A stretch of 11,108 nt of DNA, from the UHGV virus genome UHGV-0246901; one strand, given 5' to 3'. The first letter of the stretch is position 1; each line of letters opens with the position of its first letter. A model generated the notes under the pieces. That model was given only the letters and a program-made list of their open reading frames with translations. It made no database searches and was not told where the DNA came from. Both the position numbers and the translations under genes were made by a program. The DNA is from a virus. Of the stretch, positions 281 through 5,910 are shown piece by piece.

Positions 281-886
<606 letters not shown>

Positions 887-1337: not shown

Positions 1338-1363
1338 GGAAGCCTCTTCGGAGGCTCCTTTTT
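1338..1363 (+). terminator. rho-independent terminator T1
   Basis: GC-rich stem AGCCTC(1341-1346)/GAGGCT(1351-1356) with TTCG tetraloop, followed by CC and T5 (1359-1363), immediately after the stop of 889-1329. Confidence 0.7.
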
Positions 1364-1390: not shown

Positions 1391-1391
1391 T

Positions 1392-1478
1392 AAGGTAGGA
1401 TAGGGTGGTGTATGGTTTGGTAAGGTTGTGTAAGGTAAGGTATGGGTAGTTAATCGGAGCTACATTAAAATTCGATTA
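1392..1478 (+). repeat. GT5-H unit 2: pentameric tract 1392-1441 plus stem-loop 1451-1478
   Basis: Ten phased pentamers, nine ending GT; stem TAATCG(1451-1456)/CGATTA(1473-1478), loop GAGCTACATTAAAATT. Stem sequence differs completely from unit 1 but pairing is preserved. Confidence 0.7.
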
Positions 1479-1517
1479 CATCACTTAAGAGTCTTCTAAG
1501 AGGATTTTTAAGTGATG
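1479..1517 (+). repeat. IR-A copy 2: CATCACTTAA / 19 nt / TTAAGTGATG
   Basis: Arms 1479-1488 and 1508-1517 identical to copy 1; spacer GAGTCTTCTAAGAGGATTT differs at 2 positions, one of which converts a G-U to an A-U pair in the inner helix. Confidence 0.7.
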
Positions 1518-1528
1518 TGGGGCGAGGC

Positions 1529-1608
1529 TCGGTGAGGTGGGCTAAGGTATAGCGCGGTGTTGTTCGGTATGGGTAGTTAGTCTCAGCTACATTAAAATGA
1601 GACTTACC
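1529..1608 (+). repeat. GT5-H unit 3: degenerate pentameric tract 1529-1568 plus stem-loop 1572-1608
   Basis: Same 5-nt phase but only about 6 of 10 pentamers end in GT; stem AGTCTCA(1579-1585)/TGAGACT(1598-1604) with outer GGTA/TACC, loop GCTACATTAAAA; followed by T5, so this copy is terminator-like. Confidence 0.6.
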
Positions 1609-1640
1609 TTTTTAAAAGGTCTTTAAAAGGGTCTTTTAAC
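1609..1640 (+). repeat. M motif copy 2: TTTTTAAAAGGTCTTTAAAAGGGTCTTTTAAC
   Basis: GGTCTTT at 1618-1624 and 1630-1636; near-identical to 1359-1390. Confidence 0.55.
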
Positions 1641-1732
1641 AAGGTATTGTATGGTGTAGTTTGGTTAGGTATGGTTAGGTGTGGTAAGGTAAGGTATGGA
1701 AGGATGGCAGTAGCCTTATAAAAAATCTGCCA
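1641..1732 (+). repeat. GT5-H unit 4: (NNGGT)11 tract 1641-1695 plus stem-loop 1705-1732
   Basis: Eleven consecutive pentamers all ending GT (aaggt attgt atggt gtagt ttggt taggt atggt taggt gtggt aaggt aaggt); stem TGGCAG(1705-1710)/CTGCCA(1727-1732), loop TAGCCTTATAAAAAAT. Confidence 0.7.
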
Positions 1733-1750
1733 AATAAGCTATAAAATCTG

Positions 1751-1785
1751 TTGACAAGTCAGGTGTTATAGCTTATTTTTATACT
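1751..1785 (+). promoter_or_regulatory. candidate sigma70-like promoter P2 (TTGACA 1751-1756; -10 TATTTT 1774-1779 at 17 nt, or TATACT 1780-1785 at 23 nt)
   Basis: Consensus -35 hexamer in the same TG-TTGACA context as P1, but no consensus -10 at correct spacing; sits ~40 nt upstream of the operon starting at 1824. Confidence 0.35.
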
Positions 1786-1823
1786 CAATGTAATACAAAA
1801 TTTAATATAACTTTGAGGTCGTT

Positions 1824-2207
1824 ATGAAAAAGATTTTATTAGCTGCTGCAATGGTTATGGCAATGAATTTACCAGTCAATGCAACAGAACTTCCAAATGT
1901 GGACTTATCAGGTGTTCCAGAAGATACTTGCCAGATTGTTAAAGGTGTTGCTCTAGCTAATGGTGAGCTACTTAAACCAATCTCTGAAGAGTCTTTGACA
2001 GAGATGACTGATAAGGTGACTGACTACCAGTATCGTGTTCTTGCAGAGTATTTCCTGCAATCTGCAAACATTAAAGAGAAACACCATGACGATATTGATG
2101 TACAGGCGATGCTCAACCACCGTATCCAGTTTAAAGAAGATTTGATGCAAAAAGCTATGTATGGTGTGGAGTATTTCTTAGAAAACAGAAGCTGCACAGG
2201 TATTTGA
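1824..2207 (+). CDS. small secreted/periplasmic protein (127 aa, predicted signal peptide)
   Basis: GAGG ~5 nt upstream of ATG; N-terminus MKKILLAAAMVMAMNLPVNA has a basic n-region, hydrophobic core and AXA-like VNA cleavage site; mature part ~105 aa with two Cys. Confidence 0.75.
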   Translation: MKKILLAAAMVMAMNLPVNATELPNVDLSGVPEDTCQIVKGVALANGELLKPISEESLTEMTDKVTDYQYRVLAEYFLQSANIKEKHHDDIDVQAMLNHRIQFKEDLMQKAMYGVEYFLENRSCTGI

Positions 2208-2208
2208 T

Positions 2209-2421
2209 ATGGCTCTTAAAAAGTTACATCCCAGAAGCGGTTATGGTAAGATAATTGACGATACAGACGGATTTACAGTCTTTACAGTTATCTGTCAAGA
2301 TGATTCACAGATTGAAAAGGCTCTTGATGATTATCTTAATGATGAACGTGAAAAGGTTAGGGCTACAAACATAGATTCATTGATTGACACTTCACGCAAA
2401 CGGAAGAAGAAAGATGAATGA
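2209..2421 (+). CDS. hypothetical small protein (70 aa, lysine-rich C-terminus)
   Basis: ATG 2 nt after upstream stop; overlaps the next gene. Confidence 0.5.
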   Translation: MALKKLHPRSGYGKIIDDTDGFTVFTVICQDDSQIEKALDDYLNDEREKVRATNIDSLIDTSRKRKKKDE

Positions 2422-2713
2422 GGTTTTTGACCCTTATGCCCCACAAGATGATTGGGAGGCTGATAGAGAGGCTGAAATGGAGAGTTATATTTGTCCAATG
2501 GATGTAGACGAAATGAGAGACTTCGTTGCACATCGTTTTAAGAGAGAGATTAAATCCAGAGGTCTTTCTCAAGAGCAAGTTGCTAAAATTTGTGGTATCT
2601 CTCAGGCTCGTGTATCCAACATAATCCATCTCACTGGTAACGTCTCCCTTGAGTATATGTTGGAAGTATGTGAAAAATTTGGTGTTAATTTCAATTTAAG
2701 GTTGGCAGATTAA
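2414..2713 (+). CDS. XRE (Cro/C1)-type helix-turn-helix DNA-binding protein
   Basis: Contains RGLSQEQVAKICGISQARVSNI, a canonical XRE-family HTH. Track ORF starts at 2384; ATG 2414 (MNEVF..., purine-rich upstream, 8-nt overlap with previous ORF) is an equally plausible start, so the 5' end is uncertain. Confidence 0.7.
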   Translation: MNEVFDPYAPQDDWEADREAEMESYICPMDVDEMRDFVAHRFKREIKSRGLSQEQVAKICGISQARVSNIIHLTGNVSLEYMLEVCEKFGVNFNLRLAD

Positions 2714-2714
2714 T

Positions 2715-3074
2715 ATGAAACGTGAAAACATTATCCACTCTGAAAACTTCGCATTAGGCTTTTATGGCGTACCAACTCACCTTGAAAAGTATTATGGTGT
2801 GAAGATTCTCTCCAATCTCATTATGGCTTACAAAGATGGTAAGATTAAGCATACTGAGAAGAAACGTGTCATGGGCTATATGGCTGTAGGTTCAGCAATC
2901 TCGAACATTAAGCTGGAAACAACTAGCAGTCAGATTGTGAAAGACCACTTCATCAAAGAGCTTTACCAGAATCTTGATGGTGTAGATGTTCAGGCTGTTT
3001 GGTTGGATGTTGATGGTCACAACTACACAAGCTTCGTTTTCAAAAACGATGACATTAAGTGTCTGTTCCCATAA
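2715..3074 (+). CDS. hypothetical protein (119 aa)
   Basis: ATG one nt after upstream TAA (coupled); no recognisable motif. Confidence 0.7.
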   Translation: MKRENIIHSENFALGFYGVPTHLEKYYGVKILSNLIMAYKDGKIKHTEKKRVMGYMAVGSAISNIKLETTSSQIVKDHFIKELYQNLDGVDVQAVWLDVDGHNYTSFVFKNDDIKCLFP

Positions 3075-3087
3075 TAGGTGATTAACT

Positions 3088-3603
3088 ATGATTGATATCT
3101 ACTTACAAGATGCTCATGCAGATTTCCTTAAAACGATGCTTAAAAAGTTTATGGCTTCACAGGGTGATAATGAAGCATCTTTTAAAATAGTCACATGTGG
3201 CGACGAAGCTGGTTTTGTTGAGATTGAGCATGAAGGTACTGGAAAGACTGTTTGTAAGTTACCTGATAGCATGTTCTCTAACACGTTCTTAACGAAGACT
3301 AGTATAAATGTTAAGCTTGTTCCTCAGATTGAAACATACTCTGGTACAGATTACCCTAAAGGCTTTAAGTCACTGATGAAGCACTTCTTAGATGACTTTG
3401 TAAGTAATCTTCTTAGTGAGGTAACAGAAAGCCGTACAATATTAACTGTAGAGAATATCGGAGGAACTATCAGGATTACTTCTGACCGCTACTCTATGAG
3501 TCTCTTCGACTTCGTTCCTAAGAACTTTGATGGTGTTCTGGATGAAGAAGATGACTGTGTAGACTTTATATTGGTTCTTGAACCAGTTTTTGAGGTTAAA
3601 TAA
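3088..3603 (+). CDS. hypothetical acidic protein (171 aa)
   Basis: AGGTGA Shine-Dalgarno ~6 nt upstream; uninterrupted ORF in operon context. Confidence 0.7.
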   Translation: MIDIYLQDAHADFLKTMLKKFMASQGDNEASFKIVTCGDEAGFVEIEHEGTGKTVCKLPDSMFSNTFLTKTSINVKLVPQIETYSGTDYPKGFKSLMKHFLDDFVSNLLSEVTESRTILTVENIGGTIRITSDRYSMSLFDFVPKNFDGVLDEEDDCVDFILVLEPVFEVK

Positions 3604-3864
3604 ATGAAAATTGAACACTGCTATGAGTCTGACGGAACACCTATCCGTTGTCCACATTGTGGGTGTACAGACTTGCAAGGTGAAGTTCATGTGATTGTTA
3701 ATGGTCATATAGCTGAAGAAAGTACTACATGTGTTGGTTGTGGTGAGCAACTATCATTCTGGGCTTATGGTTCATACCAACCTGCACCACACTTAATCTA
3801 CCATAGCAATAAAGCTGTGAAGAATGTTATCAACTGGTTTATTAAGAAAGGATTTACAAAATGA
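3604..3864 (+). CDS. zinc-ribbon-like small protein (86 aa)
   Basis: TAAATG junction with upstream gene; two CxxC pairs (CPHC and CVGC) ~26 aa apart; stop overlaps frd start (ATGA). Confidence 0.7.
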   Translation: MKIEHCYESDGTPIRCPHCGCTDLQGEVHVIVNGHIAEESTTCVGCGEQLSFWAYGSYQPAPHLIYHSNKAVKNVINWFIKKGFTK

Positions 3865-4406
3865 TTAAATTAATCTTTGCAAGTGGTGAAAATGGTGAGT
3901 TTGGTACTCCAACTGGTATGCCGTGGCCTCGACATAAGCAAGATATGCAAGAGTTTAAGAGACTCACTAAAAACAACTTAGTAGTGATGGGTAATGAGAC
4001 TTTCAAGACTCTGGGTAGTAAACCTTTACCAGAACGTGCAAACCTCATCTTAACAAACTCTGTACCATACTTAGGCATAGACTTTGGCAAAGATGAGGTA
4101 ATGTATGCTAAGGCCAGCAAAGAATCCTTTGGAGCATTTTTGAAGTATCTCGATAGCTCTATTGATGAAGATATCTTTGTAATTGGTGGTGCAGGTGTCC
4201 TTGTCAATGCTTTACCATATGCTGGTGTAGTTTTCCATACAGTTTTCCATAAAGTTACTGAAGAGGCCACTGTGTATTTACCTTTTGAAAACTTCTTTGA
4301 GAAGCTGTATGATAACCGTGTATTTACAAAGGTACAGTCAAAACCATCAGAGGATGGTAAAGCAACCTTTGAAATTTATGTTCCACAAGTAAAAGGACAC
4401 TTTTGA
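3861..4406 (+). CDS. frd: dihydrofolate reductase
   Basis: N-terminal MIKLIFA, MPW, FKRLT, VVMG..TF..LG..PLP.R.N.IL and IGG motifs align with bacterial FolA and phage T4 Frd; directly upstream of thymidylate synthase as in T4. Confidence 0.9.
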   Translation: MIKLIFASGENGEFGTPTGMPWPRHKQDMQEFKRLTKNNLVVMGNETFKTLGSKPLPERANLILTNSVPYLGIDFGKDEVMYAKASKESFGAFLKYLDSSIDEDIFVIGGAGVLVNALPYAGVVFHTVFHKVTEEATVYLPFENFFEKLYDNRVFTKVQSKPSEDGKATFEIYVPQVKGHF

Positions 4407-4407
4407 T

Positions 4408-5307
4408 ATGTCACAAGCAGATACAAGTTACAAAAATATCCTGAACCATGTTTTATCCGTTGGTGAACTGCGTACTACAAGAACTGGAGATGTTATCTCT
4501 GCATTTGCTCCACCACAGTTTCGCTTTGATATGCGTACTGGTTTTCCACTCTTAACATCTAAACAGGTGTTTACACGGCAAGTTATTGGGGAAGCTTTAT
4601 GGTTCCTGAACGGTGAGAATAAGCTTGGTGAACTTCGTTACCGTACTTGGGGTGAAAATGATGGGGAACGCTGGACTATCTGGTCAGATGATTTTAAACG
4701 CTGGTTAAGCTCTAATTATTCCTCTGAACAAGACTGGTTAGAGGATGCAGGTGGTAGAATCTACGGGGTTCAGTGGAGAAACTTTGAGGGTCATAATGGT
4801 TGTGTTGTAGACCAGTTAGAAACCTTAGTAACGAAGATGAAAGGTGATATCACAGACCGTTACATGCTTGTTAATGCTTGGAATGCAGCAGATATTTCAG
4901 CTAACTCGATGGCTTTAGCACCTTGCCATGTTCTGTTTCAGATTTATATCACTAATGAAGGTGAAGTTGACTTACAATGGTATCAGCGTTCTGTAGACAC
5001 CTTTTTAGGACTTCCGTTTAATATTGCGTCTTATGGCTTCATCTTAGAAGTTCTTTGTAAGATGACTGGATACACTCCACGATACTTGATAGGTGTCTTT
5101 GGAGATACTCAGATTTATCATAACCATATGAAGCAGGTCTATGAACTGATGAACAATGAAGAGTTTCATGCACCTACTTTTGAGATTGGTGTACAGCTTA
5201 ACACTTTAAGTGACTTAAAACATCTTACTGCAAGTGACTTTATTGGTGGAATTATCAACTACCAACATGCAGGGAAGATTGAAGCACCTCTGTCAGTAGG
5301 CAAGTAA
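4408..5307 (+). CDS. td: thymidylate synthase (ThyA type)
   Basis: RTGD, LWFLNG, NAWN, ALAPCH (catalytic Cys), QRS.D.FLGLPFNIASY and GDTQIYHNH motifs match ThyA-family thymidylate synthase; ORF is uninterrupted. Confidence 0.95.
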   Translation: MSQADTSYKNILNHVLSVGELRTTRTGDVISAFAPPQFRFDMRTGFPLLTSKQVFTRQVIGEALWFLNGENKLGELRYRTWGENDGERWTIWSDDFKRWLSSNYSSEQDWLEDAGGRIYGVQWRNFEGHNGCVVDQLETLVTKMKGDITDRYMLVNAWNAADISANSMALAPCHVLFQIYITNEGEVDLQWYQRSVDTFLGLPFNIASYGFILEVLCKMTGYTPRYLIGVFGDTQIYHNHMKQVYELMNNEEFHAPTFEIGVQLNTLSDLKHLTASDFIGGIINYQHAGKIEAPLSVGK

Positions 5308-5350
5308 AACAAAAAAGGCTCCCGTAAAAAGGAGCCTTAAACTTTATTTT
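5305..5350. terminator. bidirectional rho-independent terminator between convergent operons
   Basis: Stem AAGGCTCC(5315-5322)/GGAGCCTT(5331-5338), 8-nt loop. On the minus strand it is followed by a long T-run (complement of A-rich 5305-5314), a strong terminator for the gene ending at 5344; on the plus strand followed by AAACTTTATTTTT (weaker). Confidence 0.7.
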
Positions 5351-5715
5351 TCAGTATTCTTTGTGTTCTTTTCAGTAATAGCTTGGAGGGCTGATACTGA
5401 TTGAGCCAGATTGTTCACACTGTCAGAAAATTTATCAAGAGTTTTGGTAAGTTTTGCGTTTTCACCCTTAACATTCTCTAACTGAACTTTCTGGTTCTCC
5501 ATCCCTAGCTGAATCAGTCTCATGTCAGACTGTAAATCACGAATAGCTGAATAGTTACTTTTGGAATAATTATCCAACTGCTGTAACTTTGTTGTGACAG
5601 ACACTTCTTGTTTACCACTTGAAACTTGCATCGTGGTATACATCCCAATAACACTAAAAATACCAACTACAATTGCACCAATATTATTTTTAAAAGCTTC
5701 CTCTAGCCACTTCAT
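5344..5715 (-). CDS. membrane-anchored coiled-coil protein (123 aa); possible i-spanin-like or holin/exclusion-type protein
   Basis: N-terminal hydrophobic helix IGAIVVGIFSVIGMYTT followed by Q/L/N/K-rich heptad-like sequence; strong SD GGGGGAG; TAAATG junction with upstream gene. Function is a guess from topology only. Confidence 0.65.
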   Translation of the reverse strand: MKWLEEAFKNNIGAIVVGIFSVIGMYTTMQVSSGKQEVSVTTKLQQLDNYSKSNYSAIRDLQSDMRLIQLGMENQKVQLENVKGENAKLTKTLDKFSDSVNNLAQSVSALQAITEKNTKNTEK

Positions 5716-5910
5716 TTATTTCTCCCCCTTAAAAGCTTTTTCTAAGTTATCTACGAACTCATCATCAATAGGTGTGTCTGTTTTACTCGCAAGGTATCTT
5801 GCAAGCCTAAAGAACACTTTCTCAATCATGTATTCACTTAGAAGGGATAAAATGAGTTTCCAGAAGAAGCTACCTAGATTTTTTAGAAGAATTGCTAGGA
5901 TTGTAGGCAT
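5716..5910 (-). CDS. small membrane protein (64 aa); possible holin-like
   Basis: Hydrophobic segment ILAILLKNLGSFFWKLILSLL and acidic C-terminus; SD GAGGTG ~5 nt upstream; first gene after a sigma70-like promoter. Confidence 0.55.
   Translation of the reverse strand: MPTILAILLKNLGSFFWKLILSLLSEYMIEKVFFRLARYLASKTDTPIDDEFVDNLEKAFKGEK

What the first reader, a model, noticed from the sequence alone, without database searches (positions are those of the whole stretch)
1824..2207. Signal-peptide protein at the head of the early operon
MKKILLAAAMVMAMNLPVNA-TE has the features of a cleavable Sec signal peptide, giving a ~105-aa periplasmic product with two Cys. Phage periplasmic proteins made early are typically superinfection-exclusion, receptor-masking or lysis-inhibition factors; this is an analogy, not demonstrated homology.
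Basis: partly seen in the sequence, partly recalled or inferred. Interest (0 to 1): 0.45.

Follow-up and report, generated by a model that had tools for sequence, protein, structure and literature searches.

The report
Exported periplasmic helical protein of Felix-O1-like phages
The first gene of a replication-associated operon in this Felix-O1-type phage almost certainly encodes a small secreted (periplasmic), probably disulfide-stapled three-helix protein. It belongs to a tiny, uncharacterised family, is not needed for growth in the laboratory, and most plausibly alters the infected cell's envelope, but its function is unproven.

Summary
ORF 1824-2207 (127 aa) is real and is 100% identical to Felix O1 ORF87 (NP_944938). 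It is under strong purifying selection: 12 synonymous and 0 non-synonymous changes against Felix O1.

Its N-terminus has the features of a Sec/SPase-I signal peptide (MKK, a 13-residue hydrophobic core, P-V-N-A|T). This pattern is kept in homologues only 25-35% identical, as are both cysteines. The mature product is 107 aa with pI 4.6. AlphaFold2 models it confidently as a three-helix bundle and leaves the signal peptide disordered.

The gene follows a terminator-like hairpin and a promoter whose -35 hexamer is invariant across genera. It heads a tightly packed eight-gene unit ending in DHFR and thymidylate synthase.

"Early" is only partly right: published RT-PCR puts Felix O1 ORF87 in the 25-min class. 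The SUSP1 homologue was "Not Fit" in a CRISPRi-ART screen, so it is dispensable in the laboratory.

I found no sequence or fold relationship to T4 Spackle, T4 RI or any characterised protein. The family (phrog_4332) is tiny. It occurs in three Ounavirinae genera, one metagenomic relative and a rare integrative island of E. coli and Citrobacter.

The function is inferred only. An envelope-level exclusion or protection role is most likely (about 0.3-0.35).

The parts
1341..1356 (+). Terminator-like GC hairpin followed by a T-run, ending the upstream unit (ORFs 284-886 and 889-1329).
   Evidence: AGCCTCTTCGGAGGCT, then CCTTTTTAAA.
1751..1779 (+). Sigma-70-like promoter: -35 TTGACA (1751-1756), 17-nt spacer, -10 TATTTT (1774-1779).
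   Evidence: 10 of 12 matches. GTTGACA is invariant in Felixounavirus, Suspvirus, Mooglevirus and the metagenomic relative L007.
1780..1785 (+). Conserved TATAC(T/C) hexamer (TATAC invariant). In Mooglevirus it lies 16 nt from the -35 and is the likely -10 there. Here it lies 23 nt away because of a 7-nt TTATTTT insert.
   Evidence: Alignment A4.
1793..1808 (+). AT-rich near-palindrome ATACAAAA|TTTAATAT between promoter and ribosome-binding site. It is a possible operator (speculative).
   Evidence: The core columns are invariant across genera. 6 of 8 positions are self-complementary (read).
1815..1818 (+). Shine-Dalgarno GAGG, 5 nt before the ATG.
   Evidence: Sequence.
1824..1883 (+). Signal peptide (residues 1-20): n-region MKK, h-region ILLAAAMVMAMNL, c-region PVNA. 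Predicted SPase I cleavage is after A20.
   Evidence: The architecture is conserved in A2 and A3. pLDDT is below 50 for residues 1-19.
1884..2204 (+). Mature periplasmic domain (residues 21-127; 107 aa, 12.2 kDa, pI 4.6). Three-helix bundle: H31-45, H55-87, H93-121.
   Evidence: phrog_4332, E = 3e-67.
1929..1931 (+). Cys36 codon (TGC), invariant across the whole family.
1962..1985 (+). Loop between H1 and H2, G47-E48-L49-L50-K51-P52-I53-S54. It is the most conserved motif. GEL(T/L)KP is invariant in the phages, and G47 and E48 are invariant in the bacterial homologues too.
2193..2195 (+). Cys124 codon (TGC), kept in all full-length members. It is the presumed disulfide partner of Cys36.
2209..5307 (+). 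Rest of the operon, tightly packed or overlapping. It comprises a 70-aa protein (2209-2421), an HTH_3 regulator (2414 or 2384 to 2713), a 119-aa protein, a 171-aa protein, an 86-aa Cys-rich protein, DHFR (3861-4406) and thymidylate synthase (4408-5307).
   Evidence: The order is the same in SUSP2, Mordin and L007.
5315..5338 (.). Bidirectional terminator-like hairpin closing the operon. It corresponds to Felix O1 t79/t80.
   Evidence: Whichard 2010, Table 2.

Best explanation
**Export and structure (well supported, about 0.85).**
- The gene is transcribed by host RNA polymerase from the conserved TTGACA-17-TATTTT promoter, as the first cistron of the unit that ends in DHFR and thymidylate synthase.
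- Its product is exported by Sec and cleaved by signal peptidase I after Ala20.
- It is probably oxidised to a C36-C124 disulfide.
- It stays in the periplasm as a soluble, acidic, 107-residue three-helix bundle.
- It is not a virion protein, not a lipoprotein and not an enzyme-like fold. It most likely acts by binding something, through the conserved G47-E48 loop and the D63/D67/Y70 positions of helix 2. These positions follow an i, i+4, i+7 spacing, so one face of the helix is inferred.

**Role (inferred, about 0.3-0.35).**
- It is an accessory factor that changes the infected cell's envelope from the periplasmic side.
- This protects the cell against secondary attack: superinfection exclusion at the cell-wall or inner-membrane penetration step, or protection from lysis from without.
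- It would be functionally analogous to T4 Spackle without being related to it.
For: **Export and structure**
- The signal-peptide anatomy is complete, and this is the only ORF in the window with it.
- The n/h/c pattern and the small -3/-1 residues are kept in Suspvirus (SFGASA|M), Mooglevirus (SFNAYA|D), the metagenomic phage P0032 (SFGASA|N) and the bacterial homologues (LPSFG|K), although the sequences differ.
- C36 is invariant, and C124 is kept in all full-length members down to 25% identity.
- The AlphaFold2 model has pLDDT 84 overall and 92-99 over most of the bundle (76-83 around the H2-H3 turn), with the signal peptide disordered.
- A natural chimera, P0013, joins a Felix-type signal peptide to a Moogle-type mature domain, so the join lies at the predicted domain boundary.

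**Real, expressed gene**
- Against Felix O1 there are 12 synonymous and 0 non-synonymous differences.
- RT-PCR was positive for ORF87.

**Operon head**.

**Accessory but retained**
- The SUSP1 homologue AVU07_agp037 was 'Not Fit' in CRISPRi-ART.
- The gene is present in 259 phage records. This is the same number, with the same organism breakdown, as for the operon's HTH regulator.
- It is absent from the 17 best-supported virion proteins listed by proteomics.

**Pattern typical of exclusion or immunity genes**
- Identity is at least 95% in nearly all Felixounavirus records.
- Identity to SUSP1 is only 32.5%, against 58-99% for most neighbouring genes (the 171-aa ORF, at 36%, is the exception) and 83-99% for capsid, tail and baseplate proteins.

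**Autonomous benefit to a cell**
- An intact homologue (130 aa, with signal peptide and both Cys) sits as one of about five genes in a small integrative island.
- It was found in 22 of 5,426 complete E. coli genomes (21 full length) and in Citrobacter koseri. Next to it lies a decayed copy of a Felix O1 gp68-like baseplate gene, and the island has no lysis genes.

**Analogy with Spackle**: Spackle is also an exported, helical, disulfide-bonded protein (PMC7677548).
Against: - No experiment shows export or any phenotype.
- There is no sequence or fold similarity to any exclusion protein.
- Pfam finds no lysozyme domain in the Felix O1 tape measure, Dit-like, plug, hub or spike proteins. The specific Spackle target is therefore not evident.
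- The hub and spike are 92% identical between Felix O1 and SUSP1, so the strong divergence of this protein does not track a tail-tip partner.
- The 'Not Fit' result is weak evidence, because ligase and all the other genes of this block listed in the retrieved passage also scored Not Fit.
- RT-PCR puts the expression maximum at 25 min rather than immediately after infection. That data set is noisy, since it puts the capsid gene in the 5-min class.
- The island association is rare (0.4% of genomes) and could be a hitch-hiking remnant.
Confidence: 0.35

Rival explanations
1. It is a lysis-timing factor. The periplasmic protein binds the periplasmic part of the phage's own lysis machinery (holin, spanin or endolysin), like the T4 RI antiholin, and delays or tunes lysis.
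For: - It is periplasmic and small, like RI.
- The phage has rIIA/rIIB (Whichard 2010, figure legend).
- The convergent neighbour 5344-5715(-) has one N-terminal transmembrane segment and a long predicted periplasmic coiled coil, so a periplasmic partner exists.
- Being dispensable in plaque-type screens fits a timing modulator.
Against: - hhalign against T4 RI gives 0.2% probability.
- The holin-like protein is 92% identical between the window and SUSP1 while this protein is 32.5%. That is discordant for a binding pair.
- Intact homologues sit in bacterial islands with no lysis genes.
- The gene is transcribed with replication genes, not with the late or lysis genes.
Confidence: 0.15
2. It is a host-takeover or counter-defence factor. 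It binds and inhibits a host periplasmic or envelope component (nuclease, protease, peptidoglycan hydrolase, envelope-stress sensor or an envelope-located defence) and so helps the phage's own infection in natural hosts.
For: - It is dispensable on a laboratory K-12 derivative yet present in all 259 phage records that carry the operon. This is the usual signature of host-specific accessory or anti-defence genes.
- It is strongly diverged between genera with different host ranges.
- It is an acidic small binder-type fold.
Against: - No PADLOC or other family match was found.
- Felixounavirus and Suspvirus members with 33%-identical versions both grow on E. coli MG1655, so divergence does not obviously follow the host.
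- Retention of a homologue in a bacterial island is harder to explain for an inhibitor of a host function.
Confidence: 0.22
3. It modifies the receptor pathway from the periplasmic side. The protein interferes with LPS core or O-antigen assembly or transport (for example the ligase, polymerase or Lpt steps), so that new LPS no longer supports adsorption. This is the workable version of the reader's 'receptor masking'.
For: - By my own knowledge, Felix O1 uses the LPS core.
- O-antigen length affects Felix O1 plating (abstract of PMC12724215).
- The periplasm is where these steps occur.
Against: - No similarity was found to any known LPS-modifying or inhibitory protein.
- By my own reasoning, a lytic infection is short compared with LPS turnover.
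- The idea is purely speculative.
Confidence: 0.08
4. It is not a secreted protein. The hydrophobic N-terminus is an uncleaved membrane anchor or a buried helix of a cytoplasmic protein.
For: - No experimental data exist.
- The heuristic used here is crude.
Against: - The h-region is only 13 residues and the 19-residue hydropathy is 1.38.
- A -3/-1 small-residue site follows in every lineage.
- The segment is excluded from the confident fold.
- A pair of conserved Cys without other metal ligands suits an oxidising compartment.
Confidence: 0.07

Closest known systems
T4 Spackle (gp61.3), a periplasmic inhibitor of the tail lysozyme gp5 that acts in superinfection exclusion
   Same: - Both are small phage proteins with an MKK-type cleavable periplasmic signal.
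- Both have a compact all-helical mature domain.
- Both have one Cys near the N-terminus of the mature part and one near the C-terminus. In Spackle these (C29-C81) form a disulfide.
- This protein is acidic (pI 4.6), and Spackle binds a basic patch of its target.
- Both sit among replication-type genes and are dispensable in the laboratory (PMC7677548).
   Different: - There is no detectable homology: hhalign gives 13.8% probability and aligns the signal peptide only.
- The mature domain is 107 aa and a long three-helix bundle, against 75 aa and a flat bundle of short helices.
- No lysozyme domain was detected in the Felix O1 tail-tip proteins.
- The published timing class is middle rather than immediate early.
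T4 RI antiholin (lysis inhibition)
   Same: It is a small phage protein acting in the periplasm. This phage also has a possible partner with a periplasmic domain, the 123-aa protein encoded at 5344-5715(-).
   Different: - There is no homology (0.2%).
- By my own knowledge, RI uses a signal-anchor-release domain, whereas this protein has a classical cleavable signal.
- The divergence pattern is discordant with the holin-like protein.
- Homologues occur without lysis genes.
T5 Llp and lambdoid Cor (outer-membrane lipoproteins that block FhuA)
   Same: They are phage-encoded, exported, small, and made to stop secondary infection. The Cor-type genes are also carried as prophage cargo.
   Different: - They are lipoproteins with a lipobox Cys at +1. 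This protein has no Cys near the cleavage site (Thr at +1), and the Moogle-type 'IALC' is not a lipobox.
- They mask a protein receptor, whereas Felix O1-type phages use LPS (my own knowledge).
Periplasmic immunity proteins of type VI amidase effectors (Tai4, Rap1a/Rap2a). This comparison rests on my own knowledge and was not tested.
   Same: They are small, signal-peptide-bearing, all-helical, disulfide-containing periplasmic binders that neutralise an incoming peptidoglycan hydrolase.
   Different: They do not appear among the top structural matches. No sequence test was done. They belong to bacterial rather than phage systems.
PHROG family phrog_4332 (function unknown)
   Same: The protein is a full-length member, E = 3e-67. 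The bacterial homologue P0040 and the metagenomic P0032 also match, at 2.6e-10 and 1.3e-17.
   Different: Nothing differs. This is the family itself, and it carries no functional annotation.

Membership tests
Sec-dependent, signal-peptidase-I-cleaved signal peptide | Positively charged n-region | tested here: met
   M-K-K, net +2 in the first 8 residues. MKK or MRK is present in every full-length homologue.
Sec-dependent, signal-peptidase-I-cleaved signal peptide | Uncharged hydrophobic h-region of roughly 7-15 residues, shorter than a transmembrane helix | tested here: met
   ILLAAAMVMAMNL is 13 residues. The best 10-residue Kyte-Doolittle mean is 2.73, and the 19-residue maximum is only 1.38.
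Sec-dependent, signal-peptidase-I-cleaved signal peptide | c-region with small uncharged residues at -3 and -1, and no Pro at +1 | tested here: met
   P-V-N-A|T-E. Other lineages have A-S-A|M, A-A-A|M, A-Y-A|D, A-S-A|N and S-F-G|K.
Sec-dependent, signal-peptidase-I-cleaved signal peptide | Actual export and cleavage | not testable with these tools
   This needs PhoA/Bla fusions, fractionation or N-terminal mass spectrometry. SignalP was not available.
Bacterial lipoprotein (SPase II) signal | Lipobox L-[AS]-[GA]-C with Cys at +1 | tested here: not met
   There is no Cys in residues 1-35 of the window protein. The Cys in Moogle-type signal peptides lies in 'IALC' at position 7, which is not a lipobox.
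Tat signal | Twin-arginine motif in the n-region | tested here: not met
   There is no Arg in residues 1-20.
T4 Spackle (gp61.3) family | Sequence homology of the mature domain | tested here: not met
   hhalign of the A2 profile against T4 Sp gives 13.8% probability, and only residues 1-25 (the signal peptide) align.
T4 Spackle (gp61.3) family | The same fold | tested here: not met
T4 Spackle (gp61.3) family | A tail-associated lysozyme as target | tested here: inconclusive
   Pfam finds no lysozyme or hydrolase domain in Felix O1 gp67-gp71. Remote or novel hydrolase domains cannot be excluded. Binding is not testable here.
T4 RI antiholin | Sequence homology | tested here: not met
   hhalign probability is 0.2%. 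The neighbouring T4 rI.-1 gives 0.3%.
T4 RI antiholin | Co-evolving holin partner with a periplasmic domain | tested here: inconclusive
   A candidate exists at 5344-5715(-). It is 92% identical to its SUSP1 counterpart, against 32.5% for this protein.
phrog_4332 | Full-length HMM match | tested here: met
   E = 3.3e-67, residues 1-127 on profile positions 1-126 of 126.
Known anti-phage defence proteins (PADLOC-DB) | HMM match | tested here: not met
   There were no hits for the phage protein or for the bacterial homologue P0040.

The most novel reading that the evidence does not exclude
phrog_4332 is a new, structurally distinct family of periplasmic superinfection-exclusion or cell-protection proteins. 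Lytic Felix-O1-group phages make it to seal the infected cell against secondary phage attack. Enterobacteria have domesticated it on a small serine-recombinase island, where it acts as an envelope-level anti-phage defence, possibly against Felix-O1-type phages themselves.
Probability: 0.25. Interest if true: 0.6.

Novelty: new variant of a known kind. Interest (0 to 1): 0.35.

Why it matters
Felix O1 and its relatives are among the most used Salmonella and E. coli phages, in typing, biocontrol and therapy cocktails. Almost nothing is known about how they deal with co-infecting phages or manipulate the envelope.

A periplasmic factor present in all 259 phage records that carry the operon would be a concrete, easily testable handle. 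The tests are plasmid expression with plating efficiency, or a deletion mutant with competition assays.

If it excludes related phages, it bears on cocktail design, because members could exclude each other. It would also add a second, unrelated structural solution to the problem that T4 Spackle solves. The bacterial island homologue would then be a candidate envelope-level defence gene.

If it does nothing of the kind, it is just one more small secreted phage protein of unknown function.

Tried and rejected
**Searches that gave nothing useful**
- Pfam: no family for the protein.
- PADLOC: none.
- PDB sequence profile search: only noise, E of 0.15 or worse.
- Foldseek against PDB: nothing below E = 0.9.
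- BFVD: only its own family member from phage Sf13.
- The afdb50 library was unavailable.
- Rfam over the whole window: nothing.
- Literature: no paper mentions Felix01p159, phrog_4332 or WP_001350217. NP_944938 appears only in a gene table.

**Exhaustive HMM search of 1.84 billion representatives**
- Nine proteins had E of 0.001 or better.
- Three were long repetitive, apparently eukaryotic proteins (P0031, P0033, P0035). They were rejected as spurious because they gave many short repeated matches of about 30-40 residues.
- The real additions were P0032, P0034 and its fragment P0036.

**Ideas considered and rejected or corrected**
- Homology to T4 Spackle, RI and rI.-1 was rejected.
- The lipoprotein and Tat readings were rejected.
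- A virion protein was rejected: the protein is not in the proteome list.
- Measuring the C36-C124 distance was impossible because no model coordinates were exposed.
- My first count of 178 E. coli genomes with the island homologue was wrong. It came from flanking sequence. The gene itself is in 22 genomes.
- The idea that divergence tracks a tail-tip partner was tested and not supported: hub and spike are 92% identical.

Full report
**What the window is**

The window is from a Felixounavirus (subfamily Ounavirinae). Bases 1400-3100 match 255 phage records, 216 of them over at least 80% of the query, with best identity about 96% to Escherichia phage JLBYU32.

Gene order is: two small ORFs, the ORF of interest, a 70-aa ORF, an HTH regulator, three small ORFs, DHFR and thymidylate synthase. 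On the other strand come a holin-like gene and the tail fibres.

The protein encoded at 1824-2207 is 100% identical to Felix O1 ORF87 (Felix01p159, NP_944938). The window is not Felix O1 itself, because Felix O1 lacks ORFs 284-886 and 889-1329.

**Check of the observation**

The ORF, its start and the quoted N-terminus are all as described. GAGG lies 5 nt upstream of the ATG.

Signal-peptide features:
- The n-region is MKK, net +2.
- The h-region is 13 uncharged hydrophobic residues.
- The c-region is P-V-N-A, with Thr at +1.
- There is no lipobox and no twin arginine.
- The 19-residue hydropathy (1.38) is too low for a membrane anchor.

The mature product is 107 aa, 12.2 kDa, pI 4.6, with Cys36 and Cys124. 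With one simple heuristic applied to all 32 six-frame ORFs of at least 60 aa in the window, only this ORF passes.

**Comparative evidence**

Word-indexed and exhaustive searches show a very small family:
- Felixounavirus members are about 93-100% identical.
- Suspvirus and Mooglevirus members are about 30-37% identical.
- There is one metagenomic Ounavirinae-like phage (P0032).
- There is a bacterial branch, P0034 and P0040.

Every full-length member has:
- MKK or MRK, a hydrophobic stretch and a small -3/-1 site, although the signal-peptide residues themselves are not conserved;
- both cysteines;
- the G47-E48 loop.

A natural chimera (Shigella phage vB_SflM_004, P0013) joins a Felix-type signal peptide to a Moogle-type mature domain.

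Within Felixounavirus the gene is under strong purifying selection: 12 synonymous and 0 non-synonymous differences against Felix O1, dN/dS about 0-0.1.

**Structure**

AlphaFold2 with the 30-sequence alignment gives pLDDT 84 and pTM 0.74. Residues 1-19 are below 50. There are three helices, 31-45, 55-87 and 93-121.

The fold searches gave no functional lead:
- Foldseek against PDB has nothing below E = 0.9.
- BFVD returns only the family's own member.
- A PDB sequence-profile search gives noise.

The fold is a plain three-helix bundle, presumably stapled by C36-C124. The Cys distance could not be measured.

**Transcription unit**

- A terminator-like hairpin at 1341-1356 ends the upstream ORFs.
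- TTGACA-17-TATTTT lies at 1751-1779.
- GTTGACA is invariant in Felixounavirus, Suspvirus, Mooglevirus and the metagenomic phage, whatever lies upstream. In Mooglevirus the invariant TATAC hexamer sits at canonical spacing.
- Downstream genes are separated by 0-13 nt or overlap, up to a bidirectional terminator at 5315-5338.

'Head of the operon' is therefore supported.

'Early' is only partly supported. Whichard et al. (PMC3185647) detected an ORF87 transcript. They list ORF87 among genes maximal at 25 min ('middle'), with td, ligase and DNA polymerase, while assuming that the 96-80 transcripton starts early. That RT-PCR table is noisy: the capsid gene is in the 5-min class.

**Functional clues**

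1. The SUSP1 homologue (AVU07_agp037, phrog_4332) is 'Not Fit' in the transcriptome-wide CRISPRi-ART screen on BW25113 (PMC11879866). It is therefore dispensable in the laboratory. Ligase and the other genes of this block listed in the retrieved passage also score Not Fit, so this is weak evidence.
2. The gene is nevertheless in all 259 phage records that carry the operon's HTH regulator, with identical counts and organism breakdown.
3. It is not among the 17 best-supported virion proteins listed.
4. Against SUSP1 it is the most diverged protein of the region, at 32.5%. Most neighbours are 58-99% (the 171-aa ORF is 36%), capsid, tail and baseplate proteins are 83-99%, hub and spike are 92%, and the tail fibres are 56-75%.
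5. An intact 130-aa homologue, with signal peptide and both Cys, lies in a small integrative island.
   - The island contains a large serine recombinase, a 241-aa protein, a small recombinase, an HTH/replication-initiator-like protein and a decayed copy of a Felix O1 gp68-like (Dit-like) baseplate gene at 51-67% identity.
   - It sits at different chromosomal sites in Citrobacter koseri, E. coli NC101 and gut metagenome contigs.
   - The gene itself is in 22 of 5,426 complete E. coli genomes, 21 of them full length and annotated as an intact CDS.
   - No lysis genes accompany it.

**Interpretation**

Export to the periplasm is well supported by inference (about 0.85).

The mechanism is not shown. 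A small acidic binder-type protein is universally kept yet dispensable in the laboratory, conserved within lineages yet very different between them, and retained intact in a decayed mobile element. This pattern is most economically read as an envelope-level protection or exclusion factor. It would be functionally like T4 Spackle, which is also exported, helical and disulfide-bonded (PMC7677548), but unrelated to it.

Points against that reading:
- No tail lysozyme domain is detectable.
- No partner shows matching divergence.
- There is no phenotype.

Rivals:
- An RI-like lysis-timing role is disfavoured.
- Inhibition of a host periplasmic or defence component is plausible and not excluded.
- Interference with LPS assembly is speculative.
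- Non-export is unlikely.

Receptor masking in the Llp or Cor sense is rejected, because the protein is not a lipoprotein and, by my own knowledge, the receptor is LPS.

**Novelty and score**

The gene is annotated everywhere as hypothetical. The family (phrog_4332) has no known function and no literature. The kind of thing, a small exported phage accessory protein, is well known. The fold and family are new to it, so I class it as a new variant of a known kind. Interest is moderate (0.35). It is readily testable and relevant to a much-used phage group, but it would not surprise a specialist.

Noticed in passing
window 1391-1442 and 1641-1703: The unusually long (494-bp) intergenic gap upstream of the gene holds GGT-rich repeats with 5- and 10-bp phasing. 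Phage Andreotti annotates a repeat_region at the same place. They could be bent DNA, iterons or a replication origin.
   Followed up: partly
window 1400-3100 versus relatives (KEP3, ULIM8, REP5-7, ekra, Andreotti, heid): In these phages the match to this stretch comes in two pieces spanning about 3.1 kb instead of 1.7 kb. This looks like an insertion or duplication of roughly 1.4 kb somewhere in the region. Its content was not examined.
   Followed up: no
window 284-886 and 889-1329: These two ORFs (phrog_4652 and phrog_5926) are absent from Felix O1, where the ligase lies 283 bp upstream of ORF87. They are 98-99% identical between this phage and SUSP1, although the adjacent operon genes are only 33-82% identical. 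This points to a recent exchange of the module between genera. The SUSP1 copy of the second ORF scored 'Semi-Fit'.
   Followed up: partly
window 5344-5715 (-) and 5716-5910 (-): The 123-aa 'putative holin' has one N-terminal transmembrane segment followed by a long coiled-coil-like part, with only a weak DivIC hit. This architecture fits an i-spanin or a T4 T-type holin as well as a classical holin. It is 92% identical to its SUSP1 counterpart.
   Followed up: partly
L022 7739-13148 (E. coli NC101), L013 7164-12964 (Citrobacter koseri), L010 5858-10050: A compact integrative island sits at different chromosomal sites: lafU-dinB, tonB-yciI, and next to yedYZ-type genes (inferred from Pfam domains). 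It holds a large serine recombinase, a 241-262-aa protein of phage families of unknown function, a small resolvase/invertase, the signal-peptide protein homologue, an HTH/replication-initiator-like protein, and a frameshifted Felix O1 gp68-like baseplate gene.
   Followed up: partly
P0013 (Shigella phage vB_SflM_004): This is a natural chimera. A Felix-type signal peptide (MKKILLASAMVMAMNLPVKA) is fused to a Moogle-type mature domain, so recombination occurred at the signal-peptide boundary.
   Followed up: no
window 1780-1808: An invariant TATAC hexamer and an AT-rich near-palindrome (ATACAAAA|TTTAATAT) lie between the promoter and the ribosome-binding site. Both are conserved across genera. 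They may form an operator for the operon's own HTH regulator (2414-2713), which would imply autoregulation. Because the sequence is AT-rich, chance palindromy is not excluded.
   Followed up: partly
window 2209-2421 and 2384/2414-2713: The 70-aa ORF and the HTH regulator overlap, and records annotate the regulator's start differently. JLBYU32 and Felix O1 use the long form equivalent to the TTG at 2384, with a 38-nt overlap. Andreotti and SUSP2 use a shorter 99-aa form with an 8-nt overlap, corresponding to the ATG at 2414 here.
   Followed up: no
search results: One 'Staphylococcus phage SA1' record (GU169904, 147 kb) and two 'Campylobacter' phage records carry this Felix-type region at about 93% identity. 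They are probably mixed or mislabelled assemblies.
   Followed up: no
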